A stretch of DNA of 64,000 nucleotides from Minisyncoccota bacterium. Its GTDB lineage: Bacteria > Patescibacteriota > Microgenomatia > UBA1400 > UBA12028. The DNA is taken from the NCBI GenBank assembly GCA_016211945.1, contig JACRHV010000003.1:69631-133630 (forward strand), read 5' to 3'. Below the pieces are notes generated by a model. It did no database searches. It was not told the DNA's origin and saw only the letters and a program-made list of their open reading frames with translations. A program made the position numbers and the translations under genes. This document shows positions 2,295-59,320 of the stretch, piece by piece (positions within the stretch are counted from its first letter, which is position 1; each line of letters opens with the position of its first letter).

Positions 2295-2326
2295 ACCCGA
2301 ACACTACATAATGATCAAGTGGATCG

Positions 2327-2881: not shown

Positions 2882-2894
2882 AGCGATTATCCTA

Positions 2895-4874: not shown

Positions 4875-4887
4875 AGGCCTTAGTGTA

Positions 4888-45181: not shown

Positions 45182-45226
45182 ATTTCAACTCTTTTTATCT
45201 TCATTCAAACATAGCACTCACCTGCG

Positions 45227-46510: not shown

Positions 46511-46540
46511 ATTGGTTGATTTTTACCACAAAAAATGTTT

Positions 46541-47167
46541 TCACAATTCTTCCTCAGTGGAAAATGTAATGCGTGATTTCGATGTTTCTAGTACTGATTT
46601 CGGCAATTCCGATCGTTTAGCAAAATCGTCAAAAGAAAGATAAGGCCTGTGTTCGATGACTGTTTTTGCTCTCGTCTCACCCACCTCTAATACTTGCTGG
46701 AGTTCCATGAGTGTCGCGGTATTTACAGGTACCTTGCGCGCTCTGCATATCTGCGCAAGTATCTGTGCCTCGTCTTTTGCTGGTACGTAAACGTGAAGCT
46801 CATGCGTGAGACGCTCAGAAAGATTGAAGGACCGTGCAAGATAGTACGGATCTGCCATTTTGGAGAATCCACCCGCCCTCTCTACCCCATCCTGAATGAG
46901 AGATCCTTCGTCAAACATATAGACTCCTGGCTTTTGGACAGCTCCAGAGATATACGTCGCAATTTGTTTTGGTCGTACGGACACGGTAGCTTCCTCTACC
47001 TGGGAAATACAATGTAGTTGTGGTGGATCCTGACGTGGACCTGCAAAATACAGGTAGAGTCCAATGCCAAAAGAAAATATCCCAATGAATGTAGAAATGA
47101 ACGGGAAAATTCGAGCAACGATTGTGTGGTGACCATCGGAAAAGCCGAGCATACGCAGAGCATACAA
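46541..47167 (-). CDS. comEA: competence protein ComEA (DNA receptor, helix-hairpin-helix)
   Basis: N-terminal TM, SLBB-like domain (ATYISGAVQKPGVYMF) and C-terminal tandem HhH (VNTATLMELQQVLEVGETRAKTVIEHRP). Confidence 0.7.
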   Translation of the reverse strand: MYALRMLGFSDGHHTIVARIFPFISTFIGIFSFGIGLYLYFAGPRQDPPQLHCISQVEEATVSVRPKQIATYISGAVQKPGVYMFDEGSLIQDGVERAGGFSKMADPYYLARSFNLSERLTHELHVYVPAKDEAQILAQICRARKVPVNTATLMELQQVLEVGETRAKTVIEHRPYLSFDDFAKRSELPKSVLETSKSRITFSTEEEL

Positions 47168-47218: not shown

Positions 47219-49690
47219 TTATGCACAGACAATGTTCACCAGTTTGCCTGGAACGACGATGATGTTCTTGATCGACATTGTAGAGAGAATCCGGGCAATT
47301 TTTTCCTCTTTTTGCGCGTTGTGTTCAAGAAGTGCTTTGTCCTTTGCATCACTTGACTGTACAGCCATTTTTCCGCGGAACTTGCCATTTATTTGAATAG
47401 CAATCTCAACCATATCATCAAGAGTGAGCGATTCTTCATATGCGGGCCAGTGTAAGGTGTGAATCGAGGAAAATGGTGTTGTTTTCGGTTGAAAAAGCGT
47501 TTGGTAGAGTTCTTCGGTCATATATGGCGCAAACGGAGCTAAAAGGCAGAGAAACTTGAGTGCGTCATCCTTTCCCATCATCTCGCCCTCACTCAGCCAA
47601 AGGTTTGTACACTCCATCATCGCGGCAATGCAGGTGTTGTACTTGAAGTCAGCCATGTCTGTGGTGCATTTTTTGATTGTTTTATGGAGTTTTGTTTGAA
47701 GTTTAGGTGACGTTTTTTGTGAACCGGTAACGAGTTTCTCATGGAAAAGCCGCCAAACCTTCTGCATCCATCGCTCCATACCGGCAATTCCGGTATCTCG
47801 GAAATCGCCCCCTTGATTGTATGGCCCCAAGAACATGAGGTATGTTCTGAGTGTGTCTACTCCAAATTTTTCAATGTATTCATCCGGATTGACAACATTT
47901 CCTTTGGACTTGCTCATCTTGGAACCATCTTTAATGATGAGACCGTGGCCAAAGAGGAACGGAAACGGTTCTTCAAACTCGAGGTATCCCCAATCTTTCA
48001 GCGCCATTGTGACGAATCTTGAATATAGTAGGTGGAGGACTGCGTGTTCTGCCCCACCGATGTAGGTGGTCACAGGAAGCCATTTCTTCGTGATTGCCGG
48101 ATCAAAGGGTTGGGTTGCGGCAGAGGCGGCAAAAAGTGAGGGGTAGCGGAGAAAGTACCAGCTTGAGTCGAGAAAAGTATCAGAGACGTCAGTCTCGCGC
48201 TTGGCTTTTGCCCCGCAGGTTGGACACGCGGTATAGAGCCAAGTTTTTGGTGCTTTCTCTAAAGGAGACTTGCCATCGCCGGTTGGTTTGTAGTCTTGAA
48301 TAAACGGAAGTTCTACTGAAAGTTGGTCCTCTGGGACCGCCTGCCAACCGCACTTCTTGCACTCGACCATGGGGATAGGCGGTCCCCAAAATCGTTGTCT
48401 TGAGATAAGCCAGTCGCGGAGGTGGTAGGAAATAACACGTTTCCCCCATCCATGTTCTTCAAAATAATCCATAGTTTTTTCCATCGCATCGTGGAATTCC
48501 ATGCCGTCCAAAAATTCTGAGTTCACCATCGTTCCACCATCGGTAACAACCTGTTTGAGTGAAGTTATCGCACCATCAAATCCATCTTTTCCTATGACTA
48601 CCCTCGGGATTGGAATCTCAAATTTCTTCGCAAACTCAAAATCGCGCTCATCATGACCAGGACAACCTTGAACAGCGCCCGTTCCCACAGTTCCTAGTAC
48701 AAAATCAGAAATCCAAACAGGAATTTCTTTCTTTGTAACATGATTTAACACATATAAACCCGTGAATACTCCTGTTTTCTTTTTTTCTTCAATTTTCCTT
48801 TGTTGATCGGATTTGTTCAAAGCCTCTTGCGTATATTTTTTTACTTGCTCAAGATTTTTCTTTGGAACTTTAATGATTTCATCAATAATATTGCGAACTA
48901 GTTCATGTTCCGGTGCCAAAACGAGAAATGTTGCGCCAAAGTTCACAGGTTTTGTGGTAAAACAAATGATTGTTGCTGTGCTACCAACCACTTGATAAAC
49001 AATGTTTATTCCTGCCTTTTTCCCAATCCACTGCCGCTGTGCAATCCGAATCTTCTCTGGCCACTTCAAGCCCTCAATATTCGTTAACAGTCGATCTGCA
49101 TAGTCCGTAATTTTGAAGAACCACTGTTTTGCTTCCTTGCGTTCAACTTCTGATTTACATCGTTCACATTTCCCATCCTCAACTTGCTCATCAGCGAGAA
49201 CCGTTTTGCATGAAGGACACCAGTTCACTTGCGAGCTTGCCTTATACGCCAAACCATGTTTGAACATTTGAACGAACAGCCACTGTGTCCATTTGTAATA
49301 CTCAGGATCATATGTTTCCAAACGCTCATTCCACGCGAAACCGTTGCCAATAGTACTGAGTTGGCGATAGAAATTTTTCTCCGAAACCTTTGCTTGCTCC
49401 GCCGGGTGTTTTCCAATCTTGATGGCGTAGTTCTCCGAGTGAATACCAAAACCATCAAGGCCGATCGGCTCAAACACATCATGTCCCAACATTCGTTGAT
49501 ATCGTCCATAAATATCCGCACCTGAGAAAGCGTACATATTTCCAACATGCAAACCTTCAGCCGAGGGATATGGAAACATCATGAGGTTGTAATACGGTTT
49601 TTTTGCGGTTGAAAGATTGGGTTCATACACCGCATGATCCTGCCACATTTTGGACCATTTTTTGCTTGCGGTTTGATGATCATACGCCAT
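47219..49690 (-). CDS. leuS: leucine--tRNA ligase
   Basis: HIGH-type P-Y-P-S...LHVGN, editing (CP1) domain and KMSKSKGN. Start set at MAYDHQTASKKWSKMW rather than the upstream Met at 49840. Confidence 0.9.
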   Translation of the reverse strand: MAYDHQTASKKWSKMWQDHAVYEPNLSTAKKPYYNLMMFPYPSAEGLHVGNMYAFSGADIYGRYQRMLGHDVFEPIGLDGFGIHSENYAIKIGKHPAEQAKVSEKNFYRQLSTIGNGFAWNERLETYDPEYYKWTQWLFVQMFKHGLAYKASSQVNWCPSCKTVLADEQVEDGKCERCKSEVERKEAKQWFFKITDYADRLLTNIEGLKWPEKIRIAQRQWIGKKAGINIVYQVVGSTATIICFTTKPVNFGATFLVLAPEHELVRNIIDEIIKVPKKNLEQVKKYTQEALNKSDQQRKIEEKKKTGVFTGLYVLNHVTKKEIPVWISDFVLGTVGTGAVQGCPGHDERDFEFAKKFEIPIPRVVIGKDGFDGAITSLKQVVTDGGTMVNSEFLDGMEFHDAMEKTMDYFEEHGWGKRVISYHLRDWLISRQRFWGPPIPMVECKKCGWQAVPEDQLSVELPFIQDYKPTGDGKSPLEKAPKTWLYTACPTCGAKAKRETDVSDTFLDSSWYFLRYPSLFAASAATQPFDPAITKKWLPVTTYIGGAEHAVLHLLYSRFVTMALKDWGYLEFEEPFPFLFGHGLIIKDGSKMSKSKGNVVNPDEYIEKFGVDTLRTYLMFLGPYNQGGDFRDTGIAGMERWMQKVWRLFHEKLVTGSQKTSPKLQTKLHKTIKKCTTDMADFKYNTCIAAMMECTNLWLSEGEMMGKDDALKFLCLLAPFAPYMTEELYQTLFQPKTTPFSSIHTLHWPAYEESLTLDDMVEIAIQINGKFRGKMAVQSSDAKDKALLEHNAQKEEKIARILSTMSIKNIIVVPGKLVNIVCA

Positions 49691-50044
49691 AACTTGGGGT
49701 ATTGTAGCATAAAAAAACTCAATAATTTTTTTGCAGTGAACGACTACACTACAAAAAAGATTATTTTCGTTTTTTTCCTTATTCTCACAATGAAGGACTA
49801 CATTGTTCGAAAGGATGATCGACATTTTTATTCTGTTCATCTGTTCAAAAGATTATCTTCGTTTTTATGTCTTCTTACTATTCACCCGCGTATCATTTAT
49901 GTGTGTCTTCCGTATCGTAATGATACGTGAGAATCAAGAACTCTATTACAAAAATGTAGAAAAAACGAGGACAATCTTTTCGAATGATGTAGTCGTTCAT
50001 CATGAGAAAAGTATTGTCGAGTTTTTCCATGTTATGATGAAACT

Positions 50045-50695
50045 ATGTTCACTGCCCAATCATTCGCCGTTGTTGGAGCTATCCTCATAAGTTATATCTG
50101 GGTTCGCACTCCAGAACTTGCGCCATATTCACTTCAGCTTACCGCAGGCCTCGTCCTTGCGTACATCATGATGAAGCGTGTAGCAAAAACACATATCTTT
50201 CATATCGCTCCGTCATCTACTACAGCTGAGGTGGGTGTGTTTACTACCGCATTGTTTATGCTCATTGGGTATACAGGCGGCGTCACCTCAATATTCCTTC
50301 CACTGCTCTATCTCCTCCTCTTTATCGGCGTCCTCTCACTCCACACCACAACCATTATTCTCTTTGAGTTTTGCATTCCACTGTACTTGTGGGCACTCGG
50401 ACCGGTGCCAATGACACAACATCAACTCGCAACACTTCTTTCCTTCCCCATTCTTCTCCCCCTCTTGGTGTTTGCGCGTAAGCAATACACAACCGCACAA
50501 CAAGAGAAAAAAGTAGAGGAAAAACTCGCAGATCAAACATTCTCTGCCGCACTGTTTCTTTCAACATTTCTGAAACCAAAACTTCAGCATATTCTTGAAC
50601 TTTCTAACTATCCTGACCACAATAAACGAGGCATTCAGAAACAGCTTTCCCTAACGATAGAGGAACTCGACGATGTTCTCAAAGAAACAGAGTAA
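50045..50695 (+). CDS. hypothetical membrane protein
   Basis: About 6 TM N-terminal half, soluble C-terminal tail. Overlaps the start of the surface-protein cluster. Confidence 0.4.
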   Translation: MFTAQSFAVVGAILISYIWVRTPELAPYSLQLTAGLVLAYIMMKRVAKTHIFHIAPSSTTAEVGVFTTALFMLIGYTGGVTSIFLPLLYLLLFIGVLSLHTTTIILFEFCIPLYLWALGPVPMTQHQLATLLSFPILLPLLVFARKQYTTAQQEKKVEEKLADQTFSAALFLSTFLKPKLQHILELSNYPDHNKRGIQKQLSLTIEELDDVLKETE

Positions 50696-51425
50696 TCGAA
50701 CGGTGGTTGGTCGAGGGATCGGCATTGTACTCGGTCTCATCTTTTTTGTTTTCTTTCTCCCCAAGGCATCCGCAAACATGTCATCGAACAGTTTTATTAT
50801 TCAGTTCAACAATCTCAACATGACATCCGGATCAAAAACAAGTAGTTCGTATAAGGTGACCGATACTGTCGGCCAAAACGCACCGGGAAAGTACGGAACG
50901 ACGGGGTACATTGTGAAAGCGGGGTTCCAGTACATCTATACCATCGGTAATTTTTCATTTTCTATTTCAAATACGATGATTAATTTTGGATTGCTCACGC
51001 CAAACACCTTTGCCACCGGCACAACAACACTCACTGTTTCCGCAAAAGGCGCCGGAGGATATACCGTAACCACTTATGAAAACTACCCGCTCAAAAAAAT
51101 CGGAACCTCGGCGACAATCGCGGATACGACATGCAACGCGGGGACATGCACAGAGGGCACTGCCGGAGTATGGACCGACGCAACAAAACCAGGATTTGGA
51201 TACAACATGACCGGATCAGACATCCCTGCCGCCTTTGTCGACGCAACATACTTCAAGCAGTTTGCGAACTATTCGCAAAACGAGCCCCCGCAAACTATCA
51301 TGAGTAACGCCGGAGTTGTAAAAAATCGACAAGCGACGGTGACGTATAAAGTCGCGGTGTCCGGAAATCAAACGGCGGGAAACTACGAGAACAACATTAC
51401 ATACATTGCAACACCGGGATACTAG
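50673..51425 (+). CDS. secreted beta-rich surface protein (WxL-like domain candidate), paralogous to C-terminus of 52438..53871
   Basis: Signal peptide ...LPKASA. S/T/G-rich beta sequence. Shared C-terminal block YENYPLKKIGTSATIA...GFGYNMTG...SQNEPPQTI...GNYENNITYIATPGY, versus YELKKMGTSTTIA...GFGYGLNY...SNSEPAQTI...GDYENNITYTATATF in the larger paralog. Confidence 0.5.
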   Translation: MFSKKQSNRTVVGRGIGIVLGLIFFVFFLPKASANMSSNSFIIQFNNLNMTSGSKTSSSYKVTDTVGQNAPGKYGTTGYIVKAGFQYIYTIGNFSFSISNTMINFGLLTPNTFATGTTTLTVSAKGAGGYTVTTYENYPLKKIGTSATIADTTCNAGTCTEGTAGVWTDATKPGFGYNMTGSDIPAAFVDATYFKQFANYSQNEPPQTIMSNAGVVKNRQATVTYKVAVSGNQTAGNYENNITYIATPGY

Positions 51426-51428
51426 CGT

Positions 51429-52418
51429 ATGAAAAAAATAATGTTTTTTACCCTAGTCGTATCTATACTCCTTTTTCCAAAGTCTTTGTCTGCGCAAGAC
51501 CAACAAAAAACATCCCTTTCTATTTCACCACCGCTTTCCGAGATCGTGATTCAACCGGGGAAGTCGGTAACGCAGGCGTTTAACATCACCAATGAGGGGT
51601 CTGTTAATCTTGAGGTCATTCCAACGGTAGTCCCGTTTGCGCCGCATCCGGAAACTGGTGAGCCTGTTCTTTTGCTCAATTCCACACGGTTTCCCTTTGC
51701 GACACTGCAAAATCTGGATAAAGCATTAGATAAGCCGTTTCTTCTGAAAGCAAAGCAGTCCGACCAACTCGTGCTCCGCATCGCCATTCCTGAAAAAGAA
51801 AAAGAGAAAGATTATTACGTCACACTCCTTCTTCAGACAAAACCGTCAGGCCTCACACAACTCAACGAAACGGGTTCTATTTCACAAGCGTATCTTGGTG
51901 TCCATCTCCTTGTCTCGGTTTCAAAATCCGGTGAGGATAAAGGAAATCTCACAATACACCAGTTTAAGTCGGCAAAGTTCCTTGATACGTTCTCGGATAT
52001 CTCTCCAAAACTTTTCGTCAAGAACAACGGAACGACATTCACGAAAGCACACGGTGAAATCAAGATCATTTCGCTGACCGGAGAGATCATAAAACTGTTT
52101 CCCATTCTCCCGGAAAATGTGTTGTCCGGCGGAGTGCGCGAACTCCACACCTCGCTTCCAGATCCGGAGGACGCAAAAAGTGCTATACCCGCACCTTTCA
52201 CATACAAACCTCTATTTCTTCTTGGATCATACACCGTAACGGCACGCGTGTTTGCGGAAAACCAAATAGCGGAAGAGGTGACTATTCAAGTATTTGCGTT
52301 TCCGTTTTCTTTGGTAGCGTTTATTATTTCACTCTACTTTACGCGACATGTTATTGTGTCTGTGAGAGAAAAACGCGAAACGAAGGCGAAAGTTGTTGAC
52401 AGAATATCAAAAGAATGA
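51429..52418 (+). CDS. CscA/DUF916-like cell-surface protein with C-terminal TM anchor
   Basis: Signal peptide (MKKIMFFTLVVSILLFPKSLSA), beta-sandwich start SISPPLSEIVIQPGKSVTQAFNITNEG, C-terminal TM plus basic tail (LVAFIISLYFTRHVIVSVREKRETKAK). Confidence 0.5.
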   Translation: MKKIMFFTLVVSILLFPKSLSAQDQQKTSLSISPPLSEIVIQPGKSVTQAFNITNEGSVNLEVIPTVVPFAPHPETGEPVLLLNSTRFPFATLQNLDKALDKPFLLKAKQSDQLVLRIAIPEKEKEKDYYVTLLLQTKPSGLTQLNETGSISQAYLGVHLLVSVSKSGEDKGNLTIHQFKSAKFLDTFSDISPKLFVKNNGTTFTKAHGEIKIISLTGEIIKLFPILPENVLSGGVRELHTSLPDPEDAKSAIPAPFTYKPLFLLGSYTVTARVFAENQIAEEVTIQVFAFPFSLVAFIISLYFTRHVIVSVREKRETKAKVVDRISKE

Positions 52419-52437
52419 CCTAAATAGCGATGAACAT

Positions 52438-53871
52438 ATGAAAAACCGATGGGTGGTGAAGTTTTTTTTGCTTGCGTGCTTTGTCGTGTTTCTTGTGGTG
52501 CCCGCTCATCTTCAACAAACGCGTTCGGCAAACCTCACTTCCGTATCCGACACGCTTTCAAGCTCCCACCTCTCCTTCTATGGATTGATGGGATCCGGGA
52601 ATACCGTTGGTGAAACACTCATTCTCATCAACACCACAACCGCCCCCTCAACCAGCTCAAGCCAGCTCGCATCGCCATCTGCCGGAACGGTAAAGATCGG
52701 AAGTAATATTTATAACTTGAGTGGCACCATGCCAAATAATGATCAGAGTAAATTTAGTATCTCCAGTGGTCTAACCTCTGGTGATCAAACCGCGGGTAAT
52801 GCAATCATCGCAACACAGTCAGCCAGTCATACCGTTCGCTTCTCTACTGCAACCGCCGTTCCAAGTGGTTCGTTCCGCGTCCTCATTCAGGCAACAACAA
52901 ACTCAGGAAGTTCGAATGACGGTATTCCAGACGGTGACGGATTTGATTTTGGCGCATCTGCACCAACCGTAACCTGTCCAACCGACAACTCGTATTACGA
53001 CTTTGTGACAGGGACAGCAACGGCGCAGGCGGTCACGATAAACTCGGTAAAGTATCACGTGTTTGAGTGCCGCTACTCCGGAACAGGCCAGGCAAGCGCG
53101 AGCTTCGCCTCCAACCCTATTACTGTCACCTCACTCATCAACCCTGCGCCAAAAAGCGGCCATGCTGTTGGGACAAACGACGCCTACAACATCATCGTGC
53201 AGAACATGGACTACACCTACACCATGGTTGATCAAACCGCTCTGCAGGTTGGAGTCATCGAGTCTGTCCGTGTGTCCGCTACCGTAGCGCCGCAAATTAC
53301 CTTCCGTATTGCCGGTCTTCCCTCAGGAAATACCTCCGCCTGCGGGACCGCAACAGACGTGACCACAACCCCAACCACGGTTCCTTTTGGCCAAGTGTCC
53401 ATCACCGCGTTTATGCATGCGGGCCAGGCACTTGATGTTTCTACCAACGCTATTGGCGGGTATGCGGTAACAACACAGGCAAACTACGAACTGAAAAAAA
53501 TGGGAACTTCCACTACTATAGCAGGTGCGACTGGAAACGGTGGAAATGTGACCTACGGCGCAAAGGGGCGATGGGACTCCACAACGTATAAAGGGTTTGG
53601 GTATGGGTTGAACTACATCAGTGCAATTTCCGGATCAGGAACTGCGGCATTTGACTACGCAGATACCGATGGGAACTGTTCCGGCGGAACATTCTGTGCA
53701 AAACAATTCCCAGACCTTTCAAACAGCGAGCCCGCGCAAACCATCTTTTCATCCTCCACGGTTGCAGACACAGAGAACGTCAATGTGTGTTACAAGATCG
53801 TCATCAGCAATGTGCAGGCCGCCGGCGACTACGAAAATAACATTACCTATACCGCGACAGCGACGTTTTAA
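52438..53871 (+). CDS. large secreted beta-rich surface protein (WxL-like candidate)
   Basis: Signal peptide MKNRWVVKFFLLACFVVFLVVPAHL. Long S/T/G/N-rich region. C-terminal ~200 aa homologous to the 250-aa protein upstream. Confidence 0.5.
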   Translation: MKNRWVVKFFLLACFVVFLVVPAHLQQTRSANLTSVSDTLSSSHLSFYGLMGSGNTVGETLILINTTTAPSTSSSQLASPSAGTVKIGSNIYNLSGTMPNNDQSKFSISSGLTSGDQTAGNAIIATQSASHTVRFSTATAVPSGSFRVLIQATTNSGSSNDGIPDGDGFDFGASAPTVTCPTDNSYYDFVTGTATAQAVTINSVKYHVFECRYSGTGQASASFASNPITVTSLINPAPKSGHAVGTNDAYNIIVQNMDYTYTMVDQTALQVGVIESVRVSATVAPQITFRIAGLPSGNTSACGTATDVTTTPTTVPFGQVSITAFMHAGQALDVSTNAIGGYAVTTQANYELKKMGTSTTIAGATGNGGNVTYGAKGRWDSTTYKGFGYGLNYISAISGSGTAAFDYADTDGNCSGGTFCAKQFPDLSNSEPAQTIFSSSTVADTENVNVCYKIVISNVQAAGDYENNITYTATATF

Positions 53872-53882
53872 GGAGTTGTGAT

Positions 53883-54938
53883 ATGAAATGCCACCTGCCC
53901 CATTTTTTCCGCGTACTCGGTGCGTGTGTTGTGTTTGTCAGTCTTGCCGTGATTCCTGTTTTCGCGGTTCAATCGAGCACACCTGAAGAAATACTCGGAT
54001 CACTTGACTCGCTTGCCTTCACCGCAGTTCCCCCTCGAACCGAGGTTATCGAGGTAAAACCCGGAGACACCTATCAGACAAATATCAAGTTCCGCAATCT
54101 CACAAAACAGTCACAAGCAATCTCGACAGAAACGCTAGACTTTGTGATTGATAAGGACGGAAAGACGCCCATCCCTGTTACACAAACCGAGGCCGCTCCG
54201 CTCCGGTGGAGTCTCGCCTCGTGGATCACGGTTTCCCCTTCACAACGTGCCGTTACACCAAACGAACTCGCAACATATGACGTGGTGATCCAGGTGCCAA
54301 AGGACGCACTCCCCGGTGGACACTATGCAATGGTGGTTCACACGCCCGTTGCGATGAGTGCACTCCAGAACAAACCGCAGGAGAAAAATGCACAGTCCGC
54401 CTCTGCAGTCAATCCAAAGCTCGGAACACTCTTTTACGTAAAGGTCGCAGGAAACGTCCACGAGGAGGCCTTTATCCGATCCTTCATCGCTCCGTCATGG
54501 GTCGAGTTTGGACCGGTCAACTTTTCATATAGTGTCGAAAACTTGTCCGACGTCCATATCACTCCGCAGTCCTCGATTGTGGTCAAGGACATGATCGGTA
54601 GAACAGTGGACACGATTGTTGTTGAACCACTGAATATTTTTCCATATTCCACTCGAACGTTTACGGCGATGTTGGATAAGATTTGGGGAGTTGGCCCGTA
54701 CACTGCGCGCCTGTCCGTTCCGTACGGAACCGGAGGTAAGGTGCTCACCACAACGCTCGTGTTCTGGATGTTTCCGTACCGCATTGTGCTTGCAGTCCTC
54801 GTCATACTCATGACGCTTTTGGCGATTGTGATTGTGGTTCGCCGCCACTTGGAACACCGATACGACATGAAGGCAAAACAGATCGAGATACTCGAGGATC
54901 GTATTCGAGAACTGGAAAAGCGTTCGAGAGAACAGTAG
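53883..54938 (+). CDS. second CscA/DUF916-like surface protein with C-terminal TM anchor
   Basis: Signal peptide. TAVPPRTEVIEVKPGDTYQTNIKFRN parallels SISPPLSEIVIQPGKSVTQAFNITN of 51429..52418. C-terminal TM (IVLAVLVILMTLLAIVIVV) plus coiled-coil tail. Confidence 0.5.
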   Translation: MKCHLPHFFRVLGACVVFVSLAVIPVFAVQSSTPEEILGSLDSLAFTAVPPRTEVIEVKPGDTYQTNIKFRNLTKQSQAISTETLDFVIDKDGKTPIPVTQTEAAPLRWSLASWITVSPSQRAVTPNELATYDVVIQVPKDALPGGHYAMVVHTPVAMSALQNKPQEKNAQSASAVNPKLGTLFYVKVAGNVHEEAFIRSFIAPSWVEFGPVNFSYSVENLSDVHITPQSSIVVKDMIGRTVDTIVVEPLNIFPYSTRTFTAMLDKIWGVGPYTARLSVPYGTGGKVLTTTLVFWMFPYRIVLAVLVILMTLLAIVIVVRRHLEHRYDMKAKQIEILEDRIRELEKRSREQ

Positions 54939-54988
54939 AGGTATTCTCTACCCTGCTTTTGTGGCGTTTCTGATACACTGGATGTGGT

Positions 54989-56683
54989 ATGTTTTTCTCT
55001 GCCCGAACTGCTACGCGGATTCTTTTGATTGTCTTTGGGATAGGTGTCCTTTTTTTCTCAAGTCGTGTTTTTTCCGCCATTAACGACACTGGTGTGGACA
55101 CCGAGAATGGTGAGAACCTCGCCACCAATCCTAAAACGCGTACCACAGCCGTAAGCGCAACCGTTGTTGATATCTATCCTCCAACCGCCCCCATTCTCGT
55201 CGCACCGGACAATAACGGAAAGATTCGCACACAACTCGTCACCTTCACCTGGAAATCGAGCGTGGACGAGGAGGGTGGTACCGCAAAATACCAACTGTAT
55301 CTTGACGGGAGCTTGCTGTATGACAGCATTACCACGCCGACAAAAAACGCACCGGACTATACTTATACCGATCGTAATACGGTTTCCAATTTAGTCATGA
55401 AAAACGCGCTCGCCGAAGGATCGCACACCTGGAAAATTCGAGGATTTGATACCAATGGGAACTATGCAGACTCGGCAACATGGAGCTTTACCATCGACAC
55501 CATTGCGCCCGTCCTTTTGGTCAAACAGATCGGCGACCAAACCGTTTCTATCTCTGCACAAGATGTCACCACCATTCCTACTTCTCCCGTCATCACAACC
55601 ACCAACCCGCCAACAGTCTCCGGAACAACCGAGGCAAGCGTGACGGTCAAACTCACCATGACACTTCCCAACGGCCAGGTTACGCAACTGACAACCACAT
55701 CCGGAACCGACGGAACATTTTCCTTCACCCTCCCCACATTGTCGCTCAACATCATTGCGAAACTGCAGATTAGTGCAAACGACAGCGTGGGAAATACCTC
55801 TTTGCTTGATAATATTCCCGTTCAGGTGATTCGAAAAACATTGAAACTCCCCGCACCACTCGATAAAGTCATTCCGGAAATTCCCATTATCCCGCCGGAA
55901 GAAATTAAGCATGAGATCGCGGAAAGATTCATTCGACCATATGTACCCGAACCTGTTGTTGATATTGTGGACACCGTTGCGCCGATCGGAAACTCGGCCA
56001 TTGGGTTTGTGTTGCCGCTTGCTCGTTTGCTTGCTGTTTTGTGGATCACCGGAACGTCATTGTGGAGTATGAGTGTTGGTCTCTTGGCAAAGGCCGCGCA
56101 TACGATCGGCCTTATTCCATTGTGGCTTTTCCCGCCCGTCGATCACATCCATGGCCTCGTGTTCGACAGTCAGACGAAAGACCCCATCCCCTTTGCGCTT
56201 CTCACTATTGTGCAGATGAAGGATCGAGGACCCACCGTTGTTGATCAAGTCGTCGCCGATCAGCATGGTGAATATGAAACCATTGCGCTCGACCTCGCAG
56301 GAAGGTATGAAATTGTTCCAACACATCGCGATTACCTCTTCATGGAAGAGGAAGCGAAACGCAAATTTTCCGGGATTGCGGAGGTGTACACCGGCCAGCC
56401 TATAACGACTGAACTGTGTGATGTTACGCCGTCGATTGGCGATGATGAGCGCGGACTTGAATGTCATGAAGACAAACTCTTGGTGCATTACTATGTGCCG
56501 ATGGAACAGAGGAAAAAATCATCGTTTATTGCACGTGTTATTGAGAAGACTGCGGAACTTCCCTCGAGTGGTCTTGCGGGCGCGGTTGTTTTGATGATCG
56601 GTATCGCCTTCTTCTACCCGACGCCATGGAACATAGGCATGTGCGTTGCGTATATCGCGGTTGCGGTGCATCGGTCGTTTTAA
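54989..56683 (+). CDS. large surface/membrane protein with Ig/FN3-like repeats, CarboxypepD_reg-like domain and C-terminal TM segments
   Basis: Signal peptide. Ig-like repeats (TFTWKSSVDEEGG...HTWKIRGFDTNGN). GLVFDSQTKDPIPFALLTIVQ...DQHGEYE resembles the carboxypeptidase-regulatory-like fold. Three or more TM segments near the C-terminus. Confidence 0.45.
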   Translation: MFFSARTATRILLIVFGIGVLFFSSRVFSAINDTGVDTENGENLATNPKTRTTAVSATVVDIYPPTAPILVAPDNNGKIRTQLVTFTWKSSVDEEGGTAKYQLYLDGSLLYDSITTPTKNAPDYTYTDRNTVSNLVMKNALAEGSHTWKIRGFDTNGNYADSATWSFTIDTIAPVLLVKQIGDQTVSISAQDVTTIPTSPVITTTNPPTVSGTTEASVTVKLTMTLPNGQVTQLTTTSGTDGTFSFTLPTLSLNIIAKLQISANDSVGNTSLLDNIPVQVIRKTLKLPAPLDKVIPEIPIIPPEEIKHEIAERFIRPYVPEPVVDIVDTVAPIGNSAIGFVLPLARLLAVLWITGTSLWSMSVGLLAKAAHTIGLIPLWLFPPVDHIHGLVFDSQTKDPIPFALLTIVQMKDRGPTVVDQVVADQHGEYETIALDLAGRYEIVPTHRDYLFMEEEAKRKFSGIAEVYTGQPITTELCDVTPSIGDDERGLECHEDKLLVHYYVPMEQRKKSSFIARVIEKTAELPSSGLAGAVVLMIGIAFFYPTPWNIGMCVAYIAVAVHRSF

Positions 56684-56751
56684 CGGAAAAACAAAGATAT
56701 CACAGATTGATTGTTTGACAATCGACTAATAATCGACTATTATTTGACTGT

Positions 56752-57783
56752 ATGTTTACTCCTCAATATACAATCACCAATCACCTTCTCTCGAATATTA
56801 TCCGCATTCATGGTCTTGTCAAAGATCTTAACGATCGAAGATTTGCAAAAGTTGTGTTTGTGGAATTTGAAAAAATCGCACGTGAAGTCTCGTCTTATGC
56901 TTCAACCAGTATTGAAGGCAATCCCCTCTCACTTACAGAAGTCAAAAGAGTGTTGAAGTCAAAACCAGAACACATCCGAGATAGTGAAAAAGAAGTCCTG
57001 AATTACAATCAAGCACTTGAACACTTGAACCAATTACTTCAATCCGAAAAACTTGAACTCTCCCTCAAGCTTATCCTGAATATTCATAAACACATAACAA
57101 GAGGACTACTTCTTCGTGATGAATCCGGGAGACTGCGCAAAAATCATGTCGTGGTCCATGATCCAAGAACGGGTGAAATAGTCTACCTTCCTCCTGATGT
57201 AAATCAGGTACGCGGATTGGTGAACGACCTCATCGCTTTCGTTCAGAAAAATAGTAAGAAGATTGATCCCTTGATTCTTGCTGGTATTTTTCATAAACAC
57301 ATGGTGATTATCCATCCGTTCATGGACGGCAACGGCAGAACAACCAGACTTGTAACCAAGGTACTTTTAGCAAACATGGGATTGAACACCTTTAACCTCT
57401 TTAGTTTCGAGAATTATTACAACAAAAATGTTACAAAATACTTTCAAGCAGTTGGAGAATATGGGGACTATAATGAAGTAGCACATTCGATCAACTACAC
57501 GCTTTGGCTCGAGTATTTCACCGATGGGTTAATCGATGAATTGTTACGCGTACAAAAATTGTTACCAACATTTGGCAATACACCAGATACAACACTGGAA
57601 ATACATCATCGTAAAATGCTTGAATACATAAAACAGCATGGATTTATCCGTGATCGAGATTACGCGAAGCTCACCGAGAGGGCCAAGGCAACACGTACCA
57701 AAGACTTCCAAAAACTTCTGGACTTAGGACTCATTGAGCGTAAGGGGAAAGGAAGATCGGTCTATTACACTCAAAAAGTCTAA
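56752..57783 (+). CDS. Fic/Doc family protein (putative AMPylator)
   Basis: Canonical Fic motif HPFMDGNGRTTRL, with a helical N-domain and C-terminal winged-helix-like region. Confidence 0.8.
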   Translation: MFTPQYTITNHLLSNIIRIHGLVKDLNDRRFAKVVFVEFEKIAREVSSYASTSIEGNPLSLTEVKRVLKSKPEHIRDSEKEVLNYNQALEHLNQLLQSEKLELSLKLILNIHKHITRGLLLRDESGRLRKNHVVVHDPRTGEIVYLPPDVNQVRGLVNDLIAFVQKNSKKIDPLILAGIFHKHMVIIHPFMDGNGRTTRLVTKVLLANMGLNTFNLFSFENYYNKNVTKYFQAVGEYGDYNEVAHSINYTLWLEYFTDGLIDELLRVQKLLPTFGNTPDTTLEIHHRKMLEYIKQHGFIRDRDYAKLTERAKATRTKDFQKLLDLGLIERKGKGRSVYYTQKV

Positions 57784-57999: not shown

Positions 58000-58824
58000 T
58001 CAGTGTGATCGATCGAGTGAAAAGACGACAGTGGATAAACGGAGGTATTCCTGAACACATGCCACGTGGGGAAACTGCGCGCCTAACACCTGGGTTGGGA
58101 GGTCCGGATCTCGAGCAAGAAGGCTGAAAAGATCACTTGAAAGGCGAGAATATTGATGTTTTCGTCCGTCGTTCAATGCTTTTTCTTTCTGCACAACGCT
58201 TAGCAGACTTGTTGTTAATTTGCTAAGCTTCGTGTAGTCTTTGGCTCGTTCATCCAGATTCCACACCGAGCGACAGAACTCCCGTTCATCCCCAATGAGA
58301 AATCGTTTGGATTCAAGAAAAACAAAAAGGCCCATGACCTTTGCGCGCATAAGCTCGTTCTTTAACTTTTCGCCGATTGGATACGGCGAGATATAAACCG
58401 CACGCTCCAATGAGACAAATCCATGCGTTCTCAGGAGATTCCGAAGGGTCCTGTAGGCGTACAACGACTCCGGCGCATACCGAACATTTGAAAAAATGGC
58501 TAGGCGCCACGCGGCATCCCACTTTTTTTTCTTAAATACTGTTTCCGGCAAAGAAGAAAAGAGATGTTCTCTTCCGGCGGCGGTCATGCGGATAAAGATT
58601 TTTCCGGCTTGCTGGACAGTGACAACCAAACCCTGCTGCTGCATTGTGGAGACAGCACTGCGTATTGAGTTCGGGCTAAAATCGAAGAGCCTCCACTGAA
58701 GCTCTGGATAGGTGAGCAGACGTTGCGCCGCTGAGGAGAAAACGTCTGAAGGATGTTGAACCGATTCATTCTCTGGAATACTGAAAGCGAGCGAGAAAAG
58801 GAGATGCGATTTAAGATCGAGCAT
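58000..58824 (-). CDS. PaaX-family transcriptional regulator
   Basis: N-terminal wHTH-like segment and PaaX C-terminal-domain pattern KKWDAAWRLAIFSNV (W.G.W.LV.F signature). Confidence 0.5.
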   Translation of the reverse strand: MLDLKSHLLFSLAFSIPENESVQHPSDVFSSAAQRLLTYPELQWRLFDFSPNSIRSAVSTMQQQGLVVTVQQAGKIFIRMTAAGREHLFSSLPETVFKKKKWDAAWRLAIFSNVRYAPESLYAYRTLRNLLRTHGFVSLERAVYISPYPIGEKLKNELMRAKVMGLFVFLESKRFLIGDEREFCRSVWNLDERAKDYTKLSKLTTSLLSVVQKEKALNDGRKHQYSRLSSDLFSLLARDPDLPTQVLGAQFPHVACVQEYLRLSTVVFSLDRSH

Positions 58825-59320
58825 GAAACTATCATAGCAGATGGTGCGGAATGACCGGGAGAGTTCCGACCTAGTTCCGATTTCTTTTTCCTCTCTTTTC
58901 TATTTCCGCACCATTAATAATGGTTTTCACGATAAAATGATACTCCTTATCTTCGTCTTTCTTGCATTCGGTATTCCTTTTCTTCGTATTATTTTTCATT
59001 TCTCGGTAAAAATGTTGATAAATCTCAAGTGATTTTTTTCTGTTGTAAATACGTTAAACAAGAGACTAATATATTCATCAATTCACAGTATCAAAAATAT
59101 GGGGAAAAACGGCAAAAAACACAAAAAACATGATCTTCATCGTGCATATTCTGATATATTTGTATGCAAATGAAAAGAAATTGTGAAATATAACACTCTC
59201 ACCGTTTTTCTCTCTTCTGTAGTCTTGATATTCCCTCTTGACCTCAACCTCTGGTCGCGCCTACAGTGACGTTCATGCGCGGAAGCTTGATTGTCTAATC
59301 TCGTCTAACGCCAGAGGAAA

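What the first reader, a model, noticed from the sequence alone, without database searches (positions are those of the whole stretch)
50045..56683. Five-gene secreted/anchored surface-protein cluster built from two paralogous pairs, resembling WxL/Csc loci of Gram-positives
Gene order on one strand is A, B, A', B', E. A (250 aa) and A' (492 aa) are signal-peptide beta-rich proteins sharing a conserved C-terminal ~200 aa ending in a WxL-like Y-E-N-N-I-T-Y-x-A-T motif (Y where WxL proteins have W). B and B' are signal peptide plus DUF916-like beta-sandwich plus C-terminal TM-and-basic-tail proteins, the CscA architecture. E is a large Ig-repeat protein with a CarboxypepD_reg-like domain and TM segments. 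Such clusters are described in Lactobacillales and Enterococcus as polysaccharide-binding surface complexes. A divergent version in this genome would be new and is a candidate host-adhesion system.
Basis: partly seen in the sequence, partly recalled or inferred. Interest (0 to 1): 0.65.

Follow-up and report, generated by a model that had tools for sequence, protein, structure and literature searches.

The report
Pam-type pilus operon, Candidatus Pacebacteria

Summary
The genes are real, but there are six co-oriented, tightly packed ORFs, not five. They are M (polytopic membrane protein), A, B, A', B' and E. All six keep this order in five relatives of distinct sequence, down to 46% A' identity.

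A and A' share a C-terminal domain (42% identity, E 5e-28). B and B' are homologous only at profile level (98.5%, E 2e-15).

A and A' match NCBIfam's CPR Pam-pilin C-domain, and A matches PamT end to end. None of the 12 family members matches Pfam WxL.

The A' model has a beta-sandwich, an unpaired conserved linker and a C-terminal Ig-like domain, as published for PamA/PamB. The B' model has two Ig-like domains plus a C-terminal membrane helix. Its best solved matches are Enterococcus WxLIP, then chaperone-usher chaperones. Its first domain aligns to DUF916 at 96% probability.

E carries, just after its signal peptide, the same V-[TS]-A-[TS]-V strand motif as the A' linker. This suggests a strand-donating membrane anchor.

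Verdict: a Microgenomatia version of the Pam donor-strand pilus described in a 2026 preprint. It is not a WxL cluster, but its chaperones are homologous to WxLIP. Pilin-to-WxL-domain homology stays unproven. The source is a Candidatus Pacebacteria MAG.

The parts
50045..50695 (+). M: 216-aa polytopic membrane protein (4-5 hydrophobic segments plus a C-terminal charged, probably cytoplasmic region). It is the first gene of the unit and its function is unknown.
   Evidence: ORF. It overlaps the start of A by 23 nt. An orthologue sits immediately upstream of A in all related loci, at 29-51% identity. Hydropathy is and the alignment A11. There are no Pfam or NCBIfam hits.
50673..51425 (+). A: 250-aa small secreted pilin, PamT-like (candidate tip subunit). 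It has a signal peptide, a conserved ~65-aa N-terminal segment and the shared Pam pilin C-domain.
   Evidence: NF058581 CPR_Pam_pilin_C E 4.7e-10, covering model positions 2-148 of 148. NF058579 PamT E 2e-8, covering 7-241 of 241. Both are below the curated cut-offs. Of 78 family representatives, 58 hit PamT, best 5.9e-16. There are 968 cluster representatives at E<=1e-3. Cys154/Cys159 are invariant among the six syntenic orthologues and at least 90% conserved across 78 representatives.
51378..51422 (+). C-terminal strand of A (G-N-Y-E-N-N-I-T-Y-I-A-T-P-G-Y-COOH).
   Evidence: Conserved to the very last residue in all orthologues. It aligns with the A' terminus.
51429..52418 (+). B: 329-aa membrane-anchored chaperone-like protein (signal peptide, two beta-rich domains, C-terminal TM at about residues 284-306, basic tail). 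It is encoded next to A.
   Evidence: Homologous to B' over 261 columns (98.5%, E 1.9e-15). Aligns to Firmicutes WxLIP domain 1 at 94.9%, E 4.4e-8.
52438..53871 (+). A': 477-aa two-domain pilin, PamA/PamB-like (candidate major subunit). The mechanical ORF begins at TTG 52393.
   Evidence: NF058581 E 4.3e-5, covering 3-148 of 148. 534 homologues, all CPR, all unnamed. The AlphaFold2 model has pLDDT 92.3 and shows an N-terminal beta-sandwich (36-273), an unpaired linker (274-286) and a C-terminal beta domain (287-477). Six conserved Cys residues suggest three pairs.
53251..53295 (+). A' inter-domain linker GVIESVRVSATVAPQ (residues 272-286): candidate donor strand.
   Evidence: It has no DSSP strand in the monomer model. 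Mean conservation is 0.825 against 0.687 overall, and the overlapping 13-residue window 277-289 ranks 6th at 0.824. The motif [VIL][TS]A[TS][VIM] is present here in 85 of 92 homologues. It corresponds to the donated linker of PamA/PamB in the preprint.
53824..53868 (+). C-terminal strand of A' (G-D-Y-E-N-N-I-T-Y-T-A-T-A-T-F-COOH).
   Evidence: This is the most conserved 13-residue window of the protein, at 0.857.
53883..54938 (+). B': 351-aa membrane-anchored chaperone-like protein (WxLIP-like and PapD-like fold), encoded next to A'.
   Evidence: The AlphaFold2 model has pLDDT 88 and shows beta domains 46-156 and 180-296 plus helix 299-350. Foldseek against PDB gives 9i25_C and 9i1y WxLIP at 5e-12 to 4e-11, then CfaA, CupB2, FimC, Caf1M, DraB and CsuC chaperones. 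hhalign to WxLIP gives 96.0%, E 4.5e-9. All 6 orthologues give weak PF06030 hits.
54351..54446 (+). B' residues 157-188: a low-confidence loop followed by the conserved strand LGTLFYVKV. This is the candidate strand-donating element of the chaperone (inference).
   Evidence: pLDDT is 60-76 for blocks 161-180, followed by strand 180-188. V180, G181, L183, Y185 and V188 are invariant or nearly so. The analogy is to the unstructured hairpin of WxLIP that is predicted to order and complete the WxL sandwich (PMC10599100).
54989..56683 (+). E: 564-aa membrane protein. It has a signal peptide, an N-terminal strand, an FN3-like domain and a Big_13 Ig domain, a Pro-rich linker, a TM at about 335-358, a CarboxypepD_reg-like domain and a TM at about 524-542. 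It is the candidate pilus terminator/anchor, with a PamR-like role.
   Evidence: Pfam Big_13 9e-12. Homologues carry PF19077 plus PF13620/PF13715. It is syntenic in all loci that extend far enough.
55142..55174 (+). E residues 52-62 (T-T-A-V-S-A-T-V-V-D-I): a conserved N-terminal strand with the same motif as the A' linker.
   Evidence: The motif [VIL][TS]A[TS][VIM] lies within the first 130 residues in 47 of 74 E homologues. Background elsewhere in these proteins is 0.06-0.16 per 1000 residues. Residues N47, P48, K49, R51, V55, V59, D61 and P65 are invariant.

Best explanation
The locus is the Microgenomatia (Candidatus Pacebacteria) version of the Pam pilus operon of CPR bacteria. This is an usher-less pilus assembled by donor-strand exchange on the outer face of the cytoplasmic membrane.

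Proposed mechanism (every step is inferred, nothing has been observed in this organism):
1. All six products are exported or inserted through Sec.
2. The pilins A and A' emerge with an incomplete C-terminal Ig-like domain.
3. The membrane-tethered two-domain chaperones B and B' cap that domain by lending a strand. By gene adjacency, B would pair with A and B' with A'.
4. A, which is PamT-like and consists of little more than the acceptor domain, starts the fibre at the tip.
5. Successive A' subunits displace the chaperone strand with their conserved inter-domain linker (..VRVSATVAPQ..), which builds the shaft.
6. E ends growth by inserting its own N-terminal V-S-A-T-V strand into the last A' subunit. 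E then holds the fibre in the membrane through its TM segments.
7. The role of M is open. It is co-transcribed and always present.
8. The likely use is attachment to a host cell, as proposed for Pam pili of Mycosynbacter.
For: Shown here:
- A and A' match the NCBIfam Pam pilin C-domain across the whole model (E 4.7e-10 and 4.3e-5). A matches PamT end to end. All 12 A/A' family members hit the C-domain model, and 58-59 of 78 wider family members hit both models.
- The A' model (pLDDT 92) reproduces the published PamA/PamB plan: a beta-sandwich, a single linker left unpaired in the monomer, and a C-terminal Ig-like domain.
- The linker and two C-domain strands are among the most conserved stretches of A'. 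The preprint reports the same for the donor strand and its binding site.
- The A' model's weak fold matches include Csu and CfaB chaperone-usher pilins (probability 0.97-0.98).
- The B' model has two Ig-like domains plus a C-terminal membrane helix, which is the PamC/PamD description. It matches chaperone-usher chaperones at E 5e-10 to 3e-7.
- B and B' are homologous.
- E's N-terminal strand shares the linker motif far above background. This parallels PamR's extra N-terminal strand plus TM.
- Paired conserved cysteines are present, as in PamA/PamB.
- The family is CPR-only by source names (Woesebacteria, Pacebacteria, Microgenomates, Patescibacteria).
- The neighbourhood matches the preprint's. 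ATP synthase sits beside the locus in L006 and L007, and a giant protein lies downstream (with Peptidase_S74 in L005).
- The six genes keep their order in five relatives of distinct sequence (L001-L003 carry the same A' protein).
Against: - The NCBIfam scores are below the curated cut-offs (39.7 against 55 bits; 33.9 against 240), so these are distant relatives of the Saccharimonadia proteins, not equivalogs.
- B, B', E and M hit no Pam-named model.
- I could not obtain the Mycosynbacter PamC/D/R/E sequences, so no component other than the pilins was compared directly.
- PamA/PamB structures are not in the PDB copy available.
- No complex could be predicted, so donor-strand exchange, the chaperone pairing and E's anchoring role are all inferences.
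- E is larger and more membrane-embedded than the described PamR.
- M has no described counterpart.
- A has a conserved 65-residue N-terminal segment whose role is unknown, so it may not be a strand-less tip subunit.
- No filament has been seen on this organism.
Confidence: 0.78

Rival explanations
1. It is a WxL/Csc-type surface complex rather than a fibre. B and B' would act like WxLIP: membrane-anchored scaffolds that bind and stabilise A and A' on the cell wall. A' would display its N-terminal domain to a host or polysaccharide, with no polymerisation.
For: - The best solved-structure matches of B' are WxLIP, including the WxLIP-long WxL complex 9i25.
- Domain 1 of B and B' is homologous to DUF916.
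- The cluster grammar (small protein, large protein, two-Ig-TM protein) equals the WxL cluster definition (PMC10599100).
- There is a weak but repeatable A-to-WxL signal at the first WxL motif (hhalign score 24-29, P 0.001-0.016). It lies above all 16 shuffled or reversed nulls. A greedy alignment is collinear end to end and puts both W positions on Y130 and Y244, with spacings of 113 and 114 residues.
Against: - No PF13731 hit in 12 of 12 A/A' proteins at E<=10.
- Deep A' C-domain profiles show no WxL signal, and A6 against A13 gives 3.9%.
- No DUF3324 sequence match was found.
- Both W residues are replaced by Y.
- The positive matches are to Pam pilin models, and those proteins were shown by cryo-EM to polymerise.
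- The conserved unpaired linker in A' and the matching strand on E are expected for a polymer, not for a static complex.
- The two readings may not exclude each other if the systems are homologous.
Confidence: 0.12
2. It is an unrelated set of secreted Ig-like adhesins or envelope proteins that merely sit together, with no shared assembly pathway. The Pam and WxLIP similarities would then be generic beta-sandwich resemblance.
For: - Foldseek on beta-sandwich models returns many unrelated Ig-like proteins, such as integrin legs, RbmA and ciliary proteins.
- TM-scores are modest (0.35-0.56).
- The Pfam hits of B' also include fn3_5, BACON and NPCBM_assoc at similar weak levels.
Against: - The sequence-level evidence does not depend on fold. 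NCBIfam matches cover the full model length at E 4.7e-10.
- hhalign of B/B' to WxLIP gives 95-96%, while seven mismatched control pairs give at most 3.3%.
- Gene order and tight spacing are strictly conserved across 46-77% A' identity.
- The linker motif is shared between A' and E.
Confidence: 0.05

Closest known systems
Pam pilus system of CPR bacteria (PamA/B/E pilins, PamT tip, PamC/D chaperones, PamR anchor), Ca. Mycosynbacter amalyticus; bioRxiv 10.64898/2026.03.03.709456; NCBIfam NF058579 and NF058581
   Same: - The pilin C-domain is homologous.
- A' has the two-domain pilin plan with a conserved linker.
- There is a small single-domain pilin.
- There are two two-Ig-domain chaperone-like proteins with a C-terminal TM.
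- There is a TM-anchored Ig-repeat protein with an extra N-terminal strand.
- Conserved cysteines occur in pairs.
- The host is a CPR bacterium.
- ATP synthase and a giant tail-fibre-like protein lie nearby in relatives.
- The preprint itself reports distant homologues in Microgenomatia.
   Different: - Only one large pilin is present, against three (PamA, PamB, PamE).
- Scores are far below NCBI's cut-offs, so this is a separate, deeply diverged branch.
- E carries an additional membrane module with CarboxypepD_reg domains.
- M, a polytopic membrane protein not described for the pam operon, leads the cluster.
- The gene order differs.
- The chaperone and anchor components were not compared directly with the Mycosynbacter proteins.
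WxL / Csc clusters of Lactobacillales, Listeria, Enterococcus and Bacillus (small WxL, large WxL, WxLIP = DUF916 + DUF3324 + TM); PMC9772566, PMC10599100; PDB 9i25, 9i1y
   Same: - Both have the three-part grammar of a small protein, a large protein and a two-Ig-TM protein.
- Domain 1 of B/B' is homologous to DUF916 (96%, E 4.5e-9).
- B's and B''s closest solved structures (tested on the B' model) are WxLIP.
- WxLIP is predicted to complete the WxL sandwich with a strand from a loop that is disordered on its own. This is the same logic as chaperone strand complementation, and the B' model has a similar low-confidence loop.
   Different: - No WxL domain is detectable in A or A'.
- Tyr stands where WxL proteins have Trp.
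- No DUF3324 sequence match was found.
- No LPXTG partner is present in the window proteins.
- There are two WxLIP-like genes per cluster, where the commonest WxL cluster has one.
- E and M are additional components.
- The host is a CPR bacterium.
- WxL clusters are described as peptidoglycan-bound complexes, not fibres.
Chaperone-usher pili of Gram-negative bacteria (Pap, Fim, CFA/I, Csu, Caf1)
   Same: - The B' model matches CfaA, CupB2, FimC, Caf1M, DraB, CsuC and YadV chaperones (E 5e-10 to 3e-7, TM 0.45-0.56).
- The A' model matches Csu and CfaB pilins weakly.
- Both pilins end in a conserved aromatic-rich C-terminal strand running up to the carboxy terminus.
   Different: - There is no usher and no outer membrane.
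- The chaperones are membrane-anchored rather than soluble.
- The donated strand is an inter-domain linker, not an N-terminal extension.
- The pilin has an extra N-terminal domain.
- There is no sequence-level match to PapD_N or to usher families.

Membership tests
Pam pilus system (CPR) | The pilin C-terminal domain is homologous to NF058581 CPR_Pam_pilin_C. | tested here: met
   A gives E 4.7e-10 (39.7 bits, model positions 2-148 of 148). A' gives E 4.3e-5 (3-148 of 148). All 12 A/A' orthologues hit it, as do 59 of 78 wider family members. Caveat: every score is below NCBI's naming cut-off of 55 bits, so this is homology, not equivalog status.
Pam pilus system (CPR) | A two-domain major pilin: an N-terminal beta-sandwich, a single linker strand and a truncated Ig-like C-domain. 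| tested here: met
   The A' AlphaFold2 model (pLDDT 92.3) has beta strands 36-273, linker 274-286 with no strand partner, and a beta domain at 287-477.
Pam pilus system (CPR) | Polymerisation by donor-strand exchange of the linker into the neighbour's C-domain. | not testable with these tools
   No multimer prediction is available. Indirect support only: linker conservation of 0.825 against a mean of 0.687.
Pam pilus system (CPR) | PapD/FimC-like chaperones that carry a C-terminal TM helix (PamC, PamD). | tested here: met
   The B' model has two beta domains plus helix 299-350. It matches chaperone-usher chaperones at E 5e-10 to 3e-7. B is homologous to B'. B and B' were not compared directly with the PamC/D sequences.
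Pam pilus system (CPR) | A small single-domain tip pilin (PamT, NF058579). | tested here: inconclusive
   A aligns to the whole PamT model (7-241 of 241), but at 33.9 bits against a cut-off of 240. 58 of 78 relatives hit it, best 5.9e-16. Whether A lacks a donor strand was not established.
Pam pilus system (CPR) | A PamR-type terminator/anchor: tandem FnIII/Ig domains, a TM and an extra N-terminal strand. | tested here: inconclusive
   E has FN3-like and Big_13 domains, TM segments and a conserved N-terminal V-[TS]-A-[TS]-V strand. No PamR sequence or model was available for comparison, and E has an extra membrane module.
Pam pilus system (CPR) | [quoted passage not shown] | tested here: met
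   Source names of homologues are nearly all CPR. The window's E is 100% identical to a Ca. Pacebacteria MAG protein. ATP synthase lies beside the locus in L006 and L007. A giant downstream protein is present in all loci, and it carries Peptidase_S74 in L005.
WxL / Csc cluster | A WxL domain (PF13731) with two Trp-x-Leu motifs in both the small and the large protein. | tested here: not met
   None of 12 hits at E<=10. hhalign to 25 verified WxL proteins gives 3-18% probability, and deep A' C-domain profiles give at most 1%. Tyr occupies both putative W positions. The reference set was verified as 25 of 25 PF13731.
WxL / Csc cluster | WxLIP domain 1 (DUF916, PF06030). | tested here: met
   This is remote homology only. 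All 6 B' orthologues hit PF06030 below the gathering score, best 1.5e-4. Four of the top 120 homologues carry a precomputed PF06030 hit. hhalign gives 96.0%, E 4.5e-9 for B' and 94.9% for B. The top PDB matches are WxLIP entries.
WxL / Csc cluster | WxLIP domain 2 (DUF3324, PF11797). | tested here: inconclusive
   There is no Pfam hit in 12 proteins, and hhalign stops at the end of domain 1. The Foldseek alignment to WxLIP spans 265-274 columns, that is both domains, but at TM 0.36-0.47.
WxL / Csc cluster | A C-terminal TM helix on the WxLIP-like protein. | tested here: met
WxL / Csc cluster | Occurrence in Firmicutes, together with an LPXTG-anchored partner (CscD-type). | tested here: not met
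   The host is a CPR MAG. None of the six products has a C-terminal LPXTG sorting signal.
Classical chaperone-usher pilus | An outer-membrane usher and a soluble periplasmic PapD-family chaperone (PF00345/PF02753). | tested here: not met
   No usher or PapD Pfam hit appears in any of the six proteins or their orthologues. The chaperone-like proteins are TM-anchored. Only the fold is shared.

The most novel reading that the evidence does not exclude
Pam pili of CPR bacteria and the WxL/Csc clusters of Firmicutes are two branches of one ancient monoderm system. In both, membrane-anchored two-Ig chaperones (PamC/D, WxLIP, and B/B' here) would complete an incomplete beta-sandwich subunit by lending a strand.

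If the subunits are also homologous (A with small WxL, A' with large WxL, and Tyr-x-Val / Tyr-x-Ala standing for the two Trp-x-Leu motifs), two things follow. WxL proteins may assemble by strand exchange rather than simply sitting on peptidoglycan. And chaperone-usher chaperones may descend from, or share an ancestor with, this membrane-anchored family.

The chaperone half is close to shown here. The subunit half rests on a weak, repeatable signal that is not significant.
Probability: 0.35. Interest if true: 0.75.

Novelty: new member of a known kind. Interest (0 to 1): 0.45.

Why it matters
All six proteins and their hundreds of relatives are annotated as hypothetical or generic Ig-like proteins, in one of the largest uncultured bacterial groups. 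Assigning them to the Pam pilus gives these genomes a concrete candidate for host attachment.

The locus also defines a compact six-gene form of the system: one shaft pilin, one small pilin, two chaperones, one anchor candidate and one unknown membrane protein. That form is easier to reconstitute than the seven-gene Mycosynbacter operon.

The link found here between the Pam-type chaperones and WxLIP (DUF916) is not mentioned in the Pam preprint or in the WxL papers I read. It suggests that a virulence-associated surface system of Enterococcus, Listeria and lactobacilli shares its assembly logic, and part of its ancestry, with a CPR pilus and with chaperone-usher pili.

Tried and rejected
- **Exact-sequence look-up of the window's A'** found nothing on record. 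The source was identified later through E.
- **PDB sequence and profile searches** with A, A', and alignments A4, A3 and A2 gave only chance hits.
- **Two Enterococcus WxL proteins** did not retrieve the 9i25 WxL chain by sequence.
- **Foldseek of the full-length A' model** gave mainly low-TM multi-Ig matches. Domain-level searching was not possible.
It was rebuilt as A10.
- **hhalign in global mode** gave a meaningless alignment.
- **Rejected: a sortase-dependent pilus.** There is no LPXTG signal. An LPSSG before the last TM of E occurs in the window protein and, by eye, in L002's orthologue, but not in the three more distant orthologues in the E alignment.
- **Rejected: a TasA/camelysin-type fibre.** There was only a single weak Peptidase_M73 hit in one B orthologue.
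- **Rejected: a dedicated protease role for M.** It has no conserved His or Cys.
- **The simple sigma-70 scan** gave no convincing promoter upstream of M. The total count (18) was only modestly above the shuffled expectation (13.1, sd 2.9).

Full report
**1. What is in the sequence**

Between the divergently transcribed LeuRS gene (47219-49840, minus strand) and a Fic-domain gene lie six plus-strand ORFs, not five:
- M, 50045-50695, 216 aa.
- A, 50673-51425, 250 aa.
- B, 51429-52418, 329 aa.
- A', mechanical ORF from TTG 52393. The probable start is ATG 52438, giving 477 aa. The closest homologue (97% identity) is 477 aa long.
- B', 53883-54938, 351 aa.
- E, 54989-56683, 564 aa.

The spacing is tight. 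M and A overlap by 23 nt. The remaining gaps are 3, 19, 11 and 50 nt. An 11-of-12 promoter-like site lies just in front of the Fic gene, so the unit probably ends with E.

A simple hydropathy scan gives these layouts:
- A and A': one N-terminal hydrophobic segment.
- B and B': an N-terminal segment plus one C-terminal TM followed by a charged tail.
- E: an N-terminal segment plus TMs near residues 335-358 and 524-542.
- M: four to five TMs plus a charged C-terminal region.

**2. Checking the paralogy claims**

A and A' share their last ~158 residues at 42% identity, E 5e-28. They end in YENNITYIATPGY and YENNITYTATATF.

B and B' are not recognisably similar by BLASTP. The E-value is 0.5 and only the TM region aligns. 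Profiles built from six orthologues each do align over 261 columns covering both ectodomains and the TM, at 98.5% probability, E 1.9e-15 and 15% identity. So both pairs are real. The second is ancient and not 'directly visible'.

**3. Conservation elsewhere**

A' has 534 detectable homologues of about 480-500 aa. Where named, nearly all come from Patescibacteria/CPR MAGs (Woesebacteria and others), and all are called hypothetical.

I fetched seven loci carrying A' homologues of 46-77% identity (L001-L007). L001-L003 carry the same A' protein (P0003), so these represent five distinct relatives. All show the same order M, A, B, A', B', E next to LeuRS. The exception is the short contig L006, which ends inside the ORF that follows B'.

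Orthologue identities to the window proteins:

| Protein | Identity to window |
|---|---|
| A | 49-73% |
| A' | 46-77% |
| B' | 39-59% |
| B | 29-53% |
| E | 32-49% |
| M | 29-51% |

Downstream in every locus lies a giant protein of roughly 1800 to 4900 or more residues. It carries Phage_int_SAM-like segments, and in L005 also Laminin_G_3 and Peptidase_S74. The window has its counterpart as an open frame from 59309 to the window end, at least 1563 aa. ATP synthase genes flank LeuRS in L006 and L007.

The window's E is 100% identical to HZA34_00820 of a Candidatus Pacebacteria MAG. That identifies the source as a CPR bacterium of the Microgenomatia. The class assignment is from my own knowledge of the taxonomy.

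**4. Family searches**

Pfam gives nothing for M, A or A'. B' gets only sub-threshold Ig-like hits, including PF06030 at 0.15. E gets Big_13 at 9e-12 plus weak CarboxypepD_reg.

NCBIfam gave the key lead:
- A matches NF058581 'CPR_Pam_pilin_C' at E 4.7e-10, over model positions 2-148 of 148.
- A matches NF058579 'CPR-type pilus protein PamT' at E 2e-8, over positions 7-241 of 241.
- A' matches NF058581 at 4.3e-5, over positions 3-148 of 148.

All 12 A and A' orthologues hit NF058581. A has 968 cluster representatives at E<=1e-3 in the 1.84-billion-protein library. In a 78-member sample of these, 59 hit the C-domain model and 58 hit PamT, best 5.9e-16.

All of these scores are below NCBI's curated cut-offs. 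The window proteins are therefore distant relatives of the proteins the models were built from, not equivalogs.

**5. The described system**

The models trace to a 2026 preprint (10.64898/2026.03.03.709456). Its main points:
- Cryo-EM of filaments from Ca. Mycosynbacter amalyticus identified two pilins, PamA and PamB.
[quoted passage not shown] That barrel accepts the linker of the neighbouring subunit, which is donor-strand exchange.
- The operon also encodes PamC and PamD (FimC/PapD-like chaperones that, unusually, keep a C-terminal TM helix), PamE, PamT (a single-domain tip pilin) and PamR (RbmA-like tandem FnIII domains with a C-terminal TM and an extra N-terminal strand, proposed to terminate and anchor the pilus).
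- There is no usher.
- Homologues were found only in CPR, mainly in Saccharimonadia and, by language-model search, in Microgenomatia.

**6. Structure predictions**

*A'* (92-sequence alignment; pLDDT 92.3, pTM 0.72):
- A beta-rich N-domain spans residues 36-273 and a beta-rich C-domain spans 287-477.
- Residues 274-286 (IESVRVSATVAPQ) have no strand assignment in the monomer. This is what one expects of a strand that pairs only in the polymer.
- The most conserved 13-residue windows in 92 homologues are:

| Window | Mean conservation |
|---|---|
| C-terminal strand YENNITYTATATF | 0.857 |
| VSTNAIGGYAVTT | 0.851 |
| Mature N-terminus | 0.847 |
| Linker VRVSATVAPQITF (ranked 6th) | 0.824 |
| Whole mature protein | 0.687 |

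- Six conserved cysteines in A' and two in A fit the paired cysteines reported for PamA/PamB.
- Foldseek of the full-length model against PDB gave only low-TM multi-Ig matches. Among them were Csu and CfaB pilins (probability 0.97-0.98) and CfaE and PapG. No PamA/PamB entry appeared.

*B'* (85-sequence alignment; pLDDT 88):
- Two beta domains span residues 46-156 and 180-296, joined through a low-confidence loop at 157-179. A long helix runs from 299 to 350.
- The best PDB matches are 9i25_C 'WxLIP from Enterococcus faecium locus A bound to long WxL' (E 5e-12) and 9i1y (8e-12 and 4e-11).
- The next matches are chaperone-usher chaperones: CfaA (5e-10, TM 0.55), CupB2, FimC, Caf1M, DraB, CsuC and YadV. 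RbmA also appears.

**7. Testing the WxL reading properly**

The WxL literature defines the cluster as three parts: a small WxL protein whose mature form is the domain alone, a large WxL protein with the domain at its C-terminus, and WxLIP (DUF916 + DUF3324 + TM). [quoted passage not shown]

To obtain real reference sequences, I scanned the species-representative genomes for the back-translated WxLIP motif NQIDKxxxYFDLK. This returned 68 Firmicutes loci. From them I extracted WxLIP and small-WxL genes and verified the sets with Pfam: 27 of 27 WxLIPs hit PF06030 plus PF11797, and 25 of 25 small WxL proteins hit PF13731.

Results for the chaperone-like proteins:
- The B' profile against WxLIP gives 96.0%, E 4.5e-9, over 93 columns covering domain 1 only.
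- The B profile against WxLIP gives 94.9%, E 4.4e-8.
- Seven mismatched control pairs in those runs give at most 3.3%.
- All 6 B' orthologues give weak PF06030 hits, best 1.5e-4.
- Four of the top 120 B' homologues carry a precomputed PF06030 assignment.

Results for the pilins:
- No PF13731 hit in any of 12 proteins at E<=10.
- A6 against the WxL set gives 3.9%.
- Deep A' C-domain profiles give at most 1%.

One weak signal recurs with three different A-family profiles. The segment 'GAGGYTVTTYE' aligns to the first WxL motif 'RGxxxGWxLxVKQ' with scores of 22.8-28.8 and P of 0.0013-0.016. Sixteen reversed or block-shuffled null profiles scored 10.5-18.3.

A greedy alignment is collinear from end to end. 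It places the second WxL motif on 'YENNITYIA'. The W-to-W spacing is 113 residues and the Y130-to-Y244 spacing is 114. This is suggestive, but after multiple comparisons it is not significant.

**8. E and M**

In E, a short strand follows the signal peptide and precedes a P-x-x-P-I-L-I-x-P entry into the first FN3-like domain. Nearly every homologue has it: T-A-V-S-A-T-V-V-D in the window and V-T-A-T-V-P-D in most others.

The pattern [VIL][TS]A[TS][VIM] occurs as follows:
- In the A' linker of 85 of 92 homologues.
- Within the first 130 residues of 47 of 74 E homologues.
- At only 0.06-0.16 per 1000 residues elsewhere in these families.

I read this as E presenting a pilin-like donor strand, which is the role proposed for PamR. 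This is an inference.

E differs from the PamR description. It has a second and third TM segment and one or two CarboxypepD_reg-like domains.

M has no family assignment, no conserved His or Cys, and a handful of invariant residues: W19, Y28, S29, Q31, P56, E62, T77, G78, S82, P86, F175, P178, K179, Q200 and E207. Its function is open. Because it is always first in the unit and overlaps A, I count it as part of the system.

**9. Conclusion**

The best-supported reading is a Pam-type, usher-less donor-strand pilus:
- A as the tip-like small pilin.
- A' as the shaft.
- B and B' as membrane-anchored chaperones.
- E as the terminator and anchor.
- M unknown.

What is shown: homology of the pilin C-domain to Pam models, the two-domain-plus-linker plan, the chaperone-like fold with a TM, B/B' homology, conserved synteny, and a CPR host. 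What is inferred: strand exchange itself, which chaperone serves which pilin, the order of assembly, E's role, and host attachment as the function.

Its core perception does hold. The architecture is the same, and the CscA/WxLIP-like proteins are true remote homologues.

The Pam preprint does not mention WxL or DUF916. No paper listed in my searches of the held library links WxL to chaperone-usher or strand-complementation systems. The chaperone-level link between the two systems therefore appears to be a new observation, within the limits of that library.

**10. Novelty and score**

The system as such was described in 2026, and distant Microgenomatia homologues were already reported. This locus is therefore a new member of a known kind. 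Its compact composition, the extra components M and the extended E, and the WxLIP connection give it moderate interest.

Noticed in passing
window 59309-64000 (+), runs off the window end: A giant open frame of at least 1563 aa with Phage_int_SAM_1/4/5-like segments near its N-terminus (E 1e-17). Relatives have a protein of roughly 1800 to 4900 or more residues at the same position, and in L005 it also carries Laminin_G_3 and Peptidase_S74. It probably corresponds to the 'tail fibre-like protein' that the Pam preprint reports as a conserved neighbour of pam operons.
   Followed up: partly
window 56752-57783 (+): A Fic/DOC-domain protein (PF02661, 6.7e-18) sits between E and the PaaX-like gene, with its own strong promoter-like site (11 of 12 positions, 56715-56743). 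No Fic-family gene occupies this position in the related loci L001-L007, so it looks like a lineage-specific insertion.
   Followed up: partly
window 58000-58824 (-): A PaaX-like regulator (PaaX_M 4.6e-10, PaaX_C 4e-4) lies between the pilus cluster and the giant ORF. L001-L003 have a PaaX-family gene in the same position. The other loci have an unannotated minus-strand gene of similar size (249-293 aa) there. It may regulate one of its neighbours.
   Followed up: no
window 44297-47167 (-): A ComEA-like gene (SLBB + HHH_3), a ComEC-like gene (Competence) and an MBL-fold gene lie directly upstream of LeuRS, followed by ArgRS (42601-44289). At least part of this DNA-uptake block sits beside LeuRS in four of the five distinct relatives. 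L006 and L007 have ATP synthase there instead.
   Followed up: partly
window 47219-49840 (-): The mechanical LeuRS ORF (873 aa) has an odd low-complexity N-terminal extension of about 50 residues. Orthologues are 819-858 aa, so the true start is probably an internal Met.
   Followed up: no
window 56555-56683 (E residues 523-564): E in the window and in the closest relative L002 ends in LPSSG followed by a long hydrophobic stretch and a short basic tail. This is superficially like a sortase signal. More distant orthologues lack the motif and continue into another CarboxypepD_reg-like domain, so it is probably just the last TM segment.
   Followed up: partly
L008-L075 (Firmicutes loci): Many of these WxL loci appear to contain two or three small-WxL-sized genes upstream of one WxLIP, for example L010, L029 and L040. 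Some loci (L033, L036, L062, L064) carry two or three adjacent ORFs of about 330-385 aa on the same strand as the motif-bearing WxLIP. These may be tandem WxLIP genes, which would be reminiscent of the two chaperone-like genes here. Pfam was checked only for a subset of the small genes, and the extra ORFs were not checked.
   Followed up: no
PDB entries 9i25 and 9i1y: Solved structures of E. faecium WxLIP alone and bound to a long WxL protein were released on 2026-01-28. No accompanying paper was found in the held library. They would allow a direct structural test of the strand-complementation idea and of the Pam-WxL relationship.
   Followed up: partly
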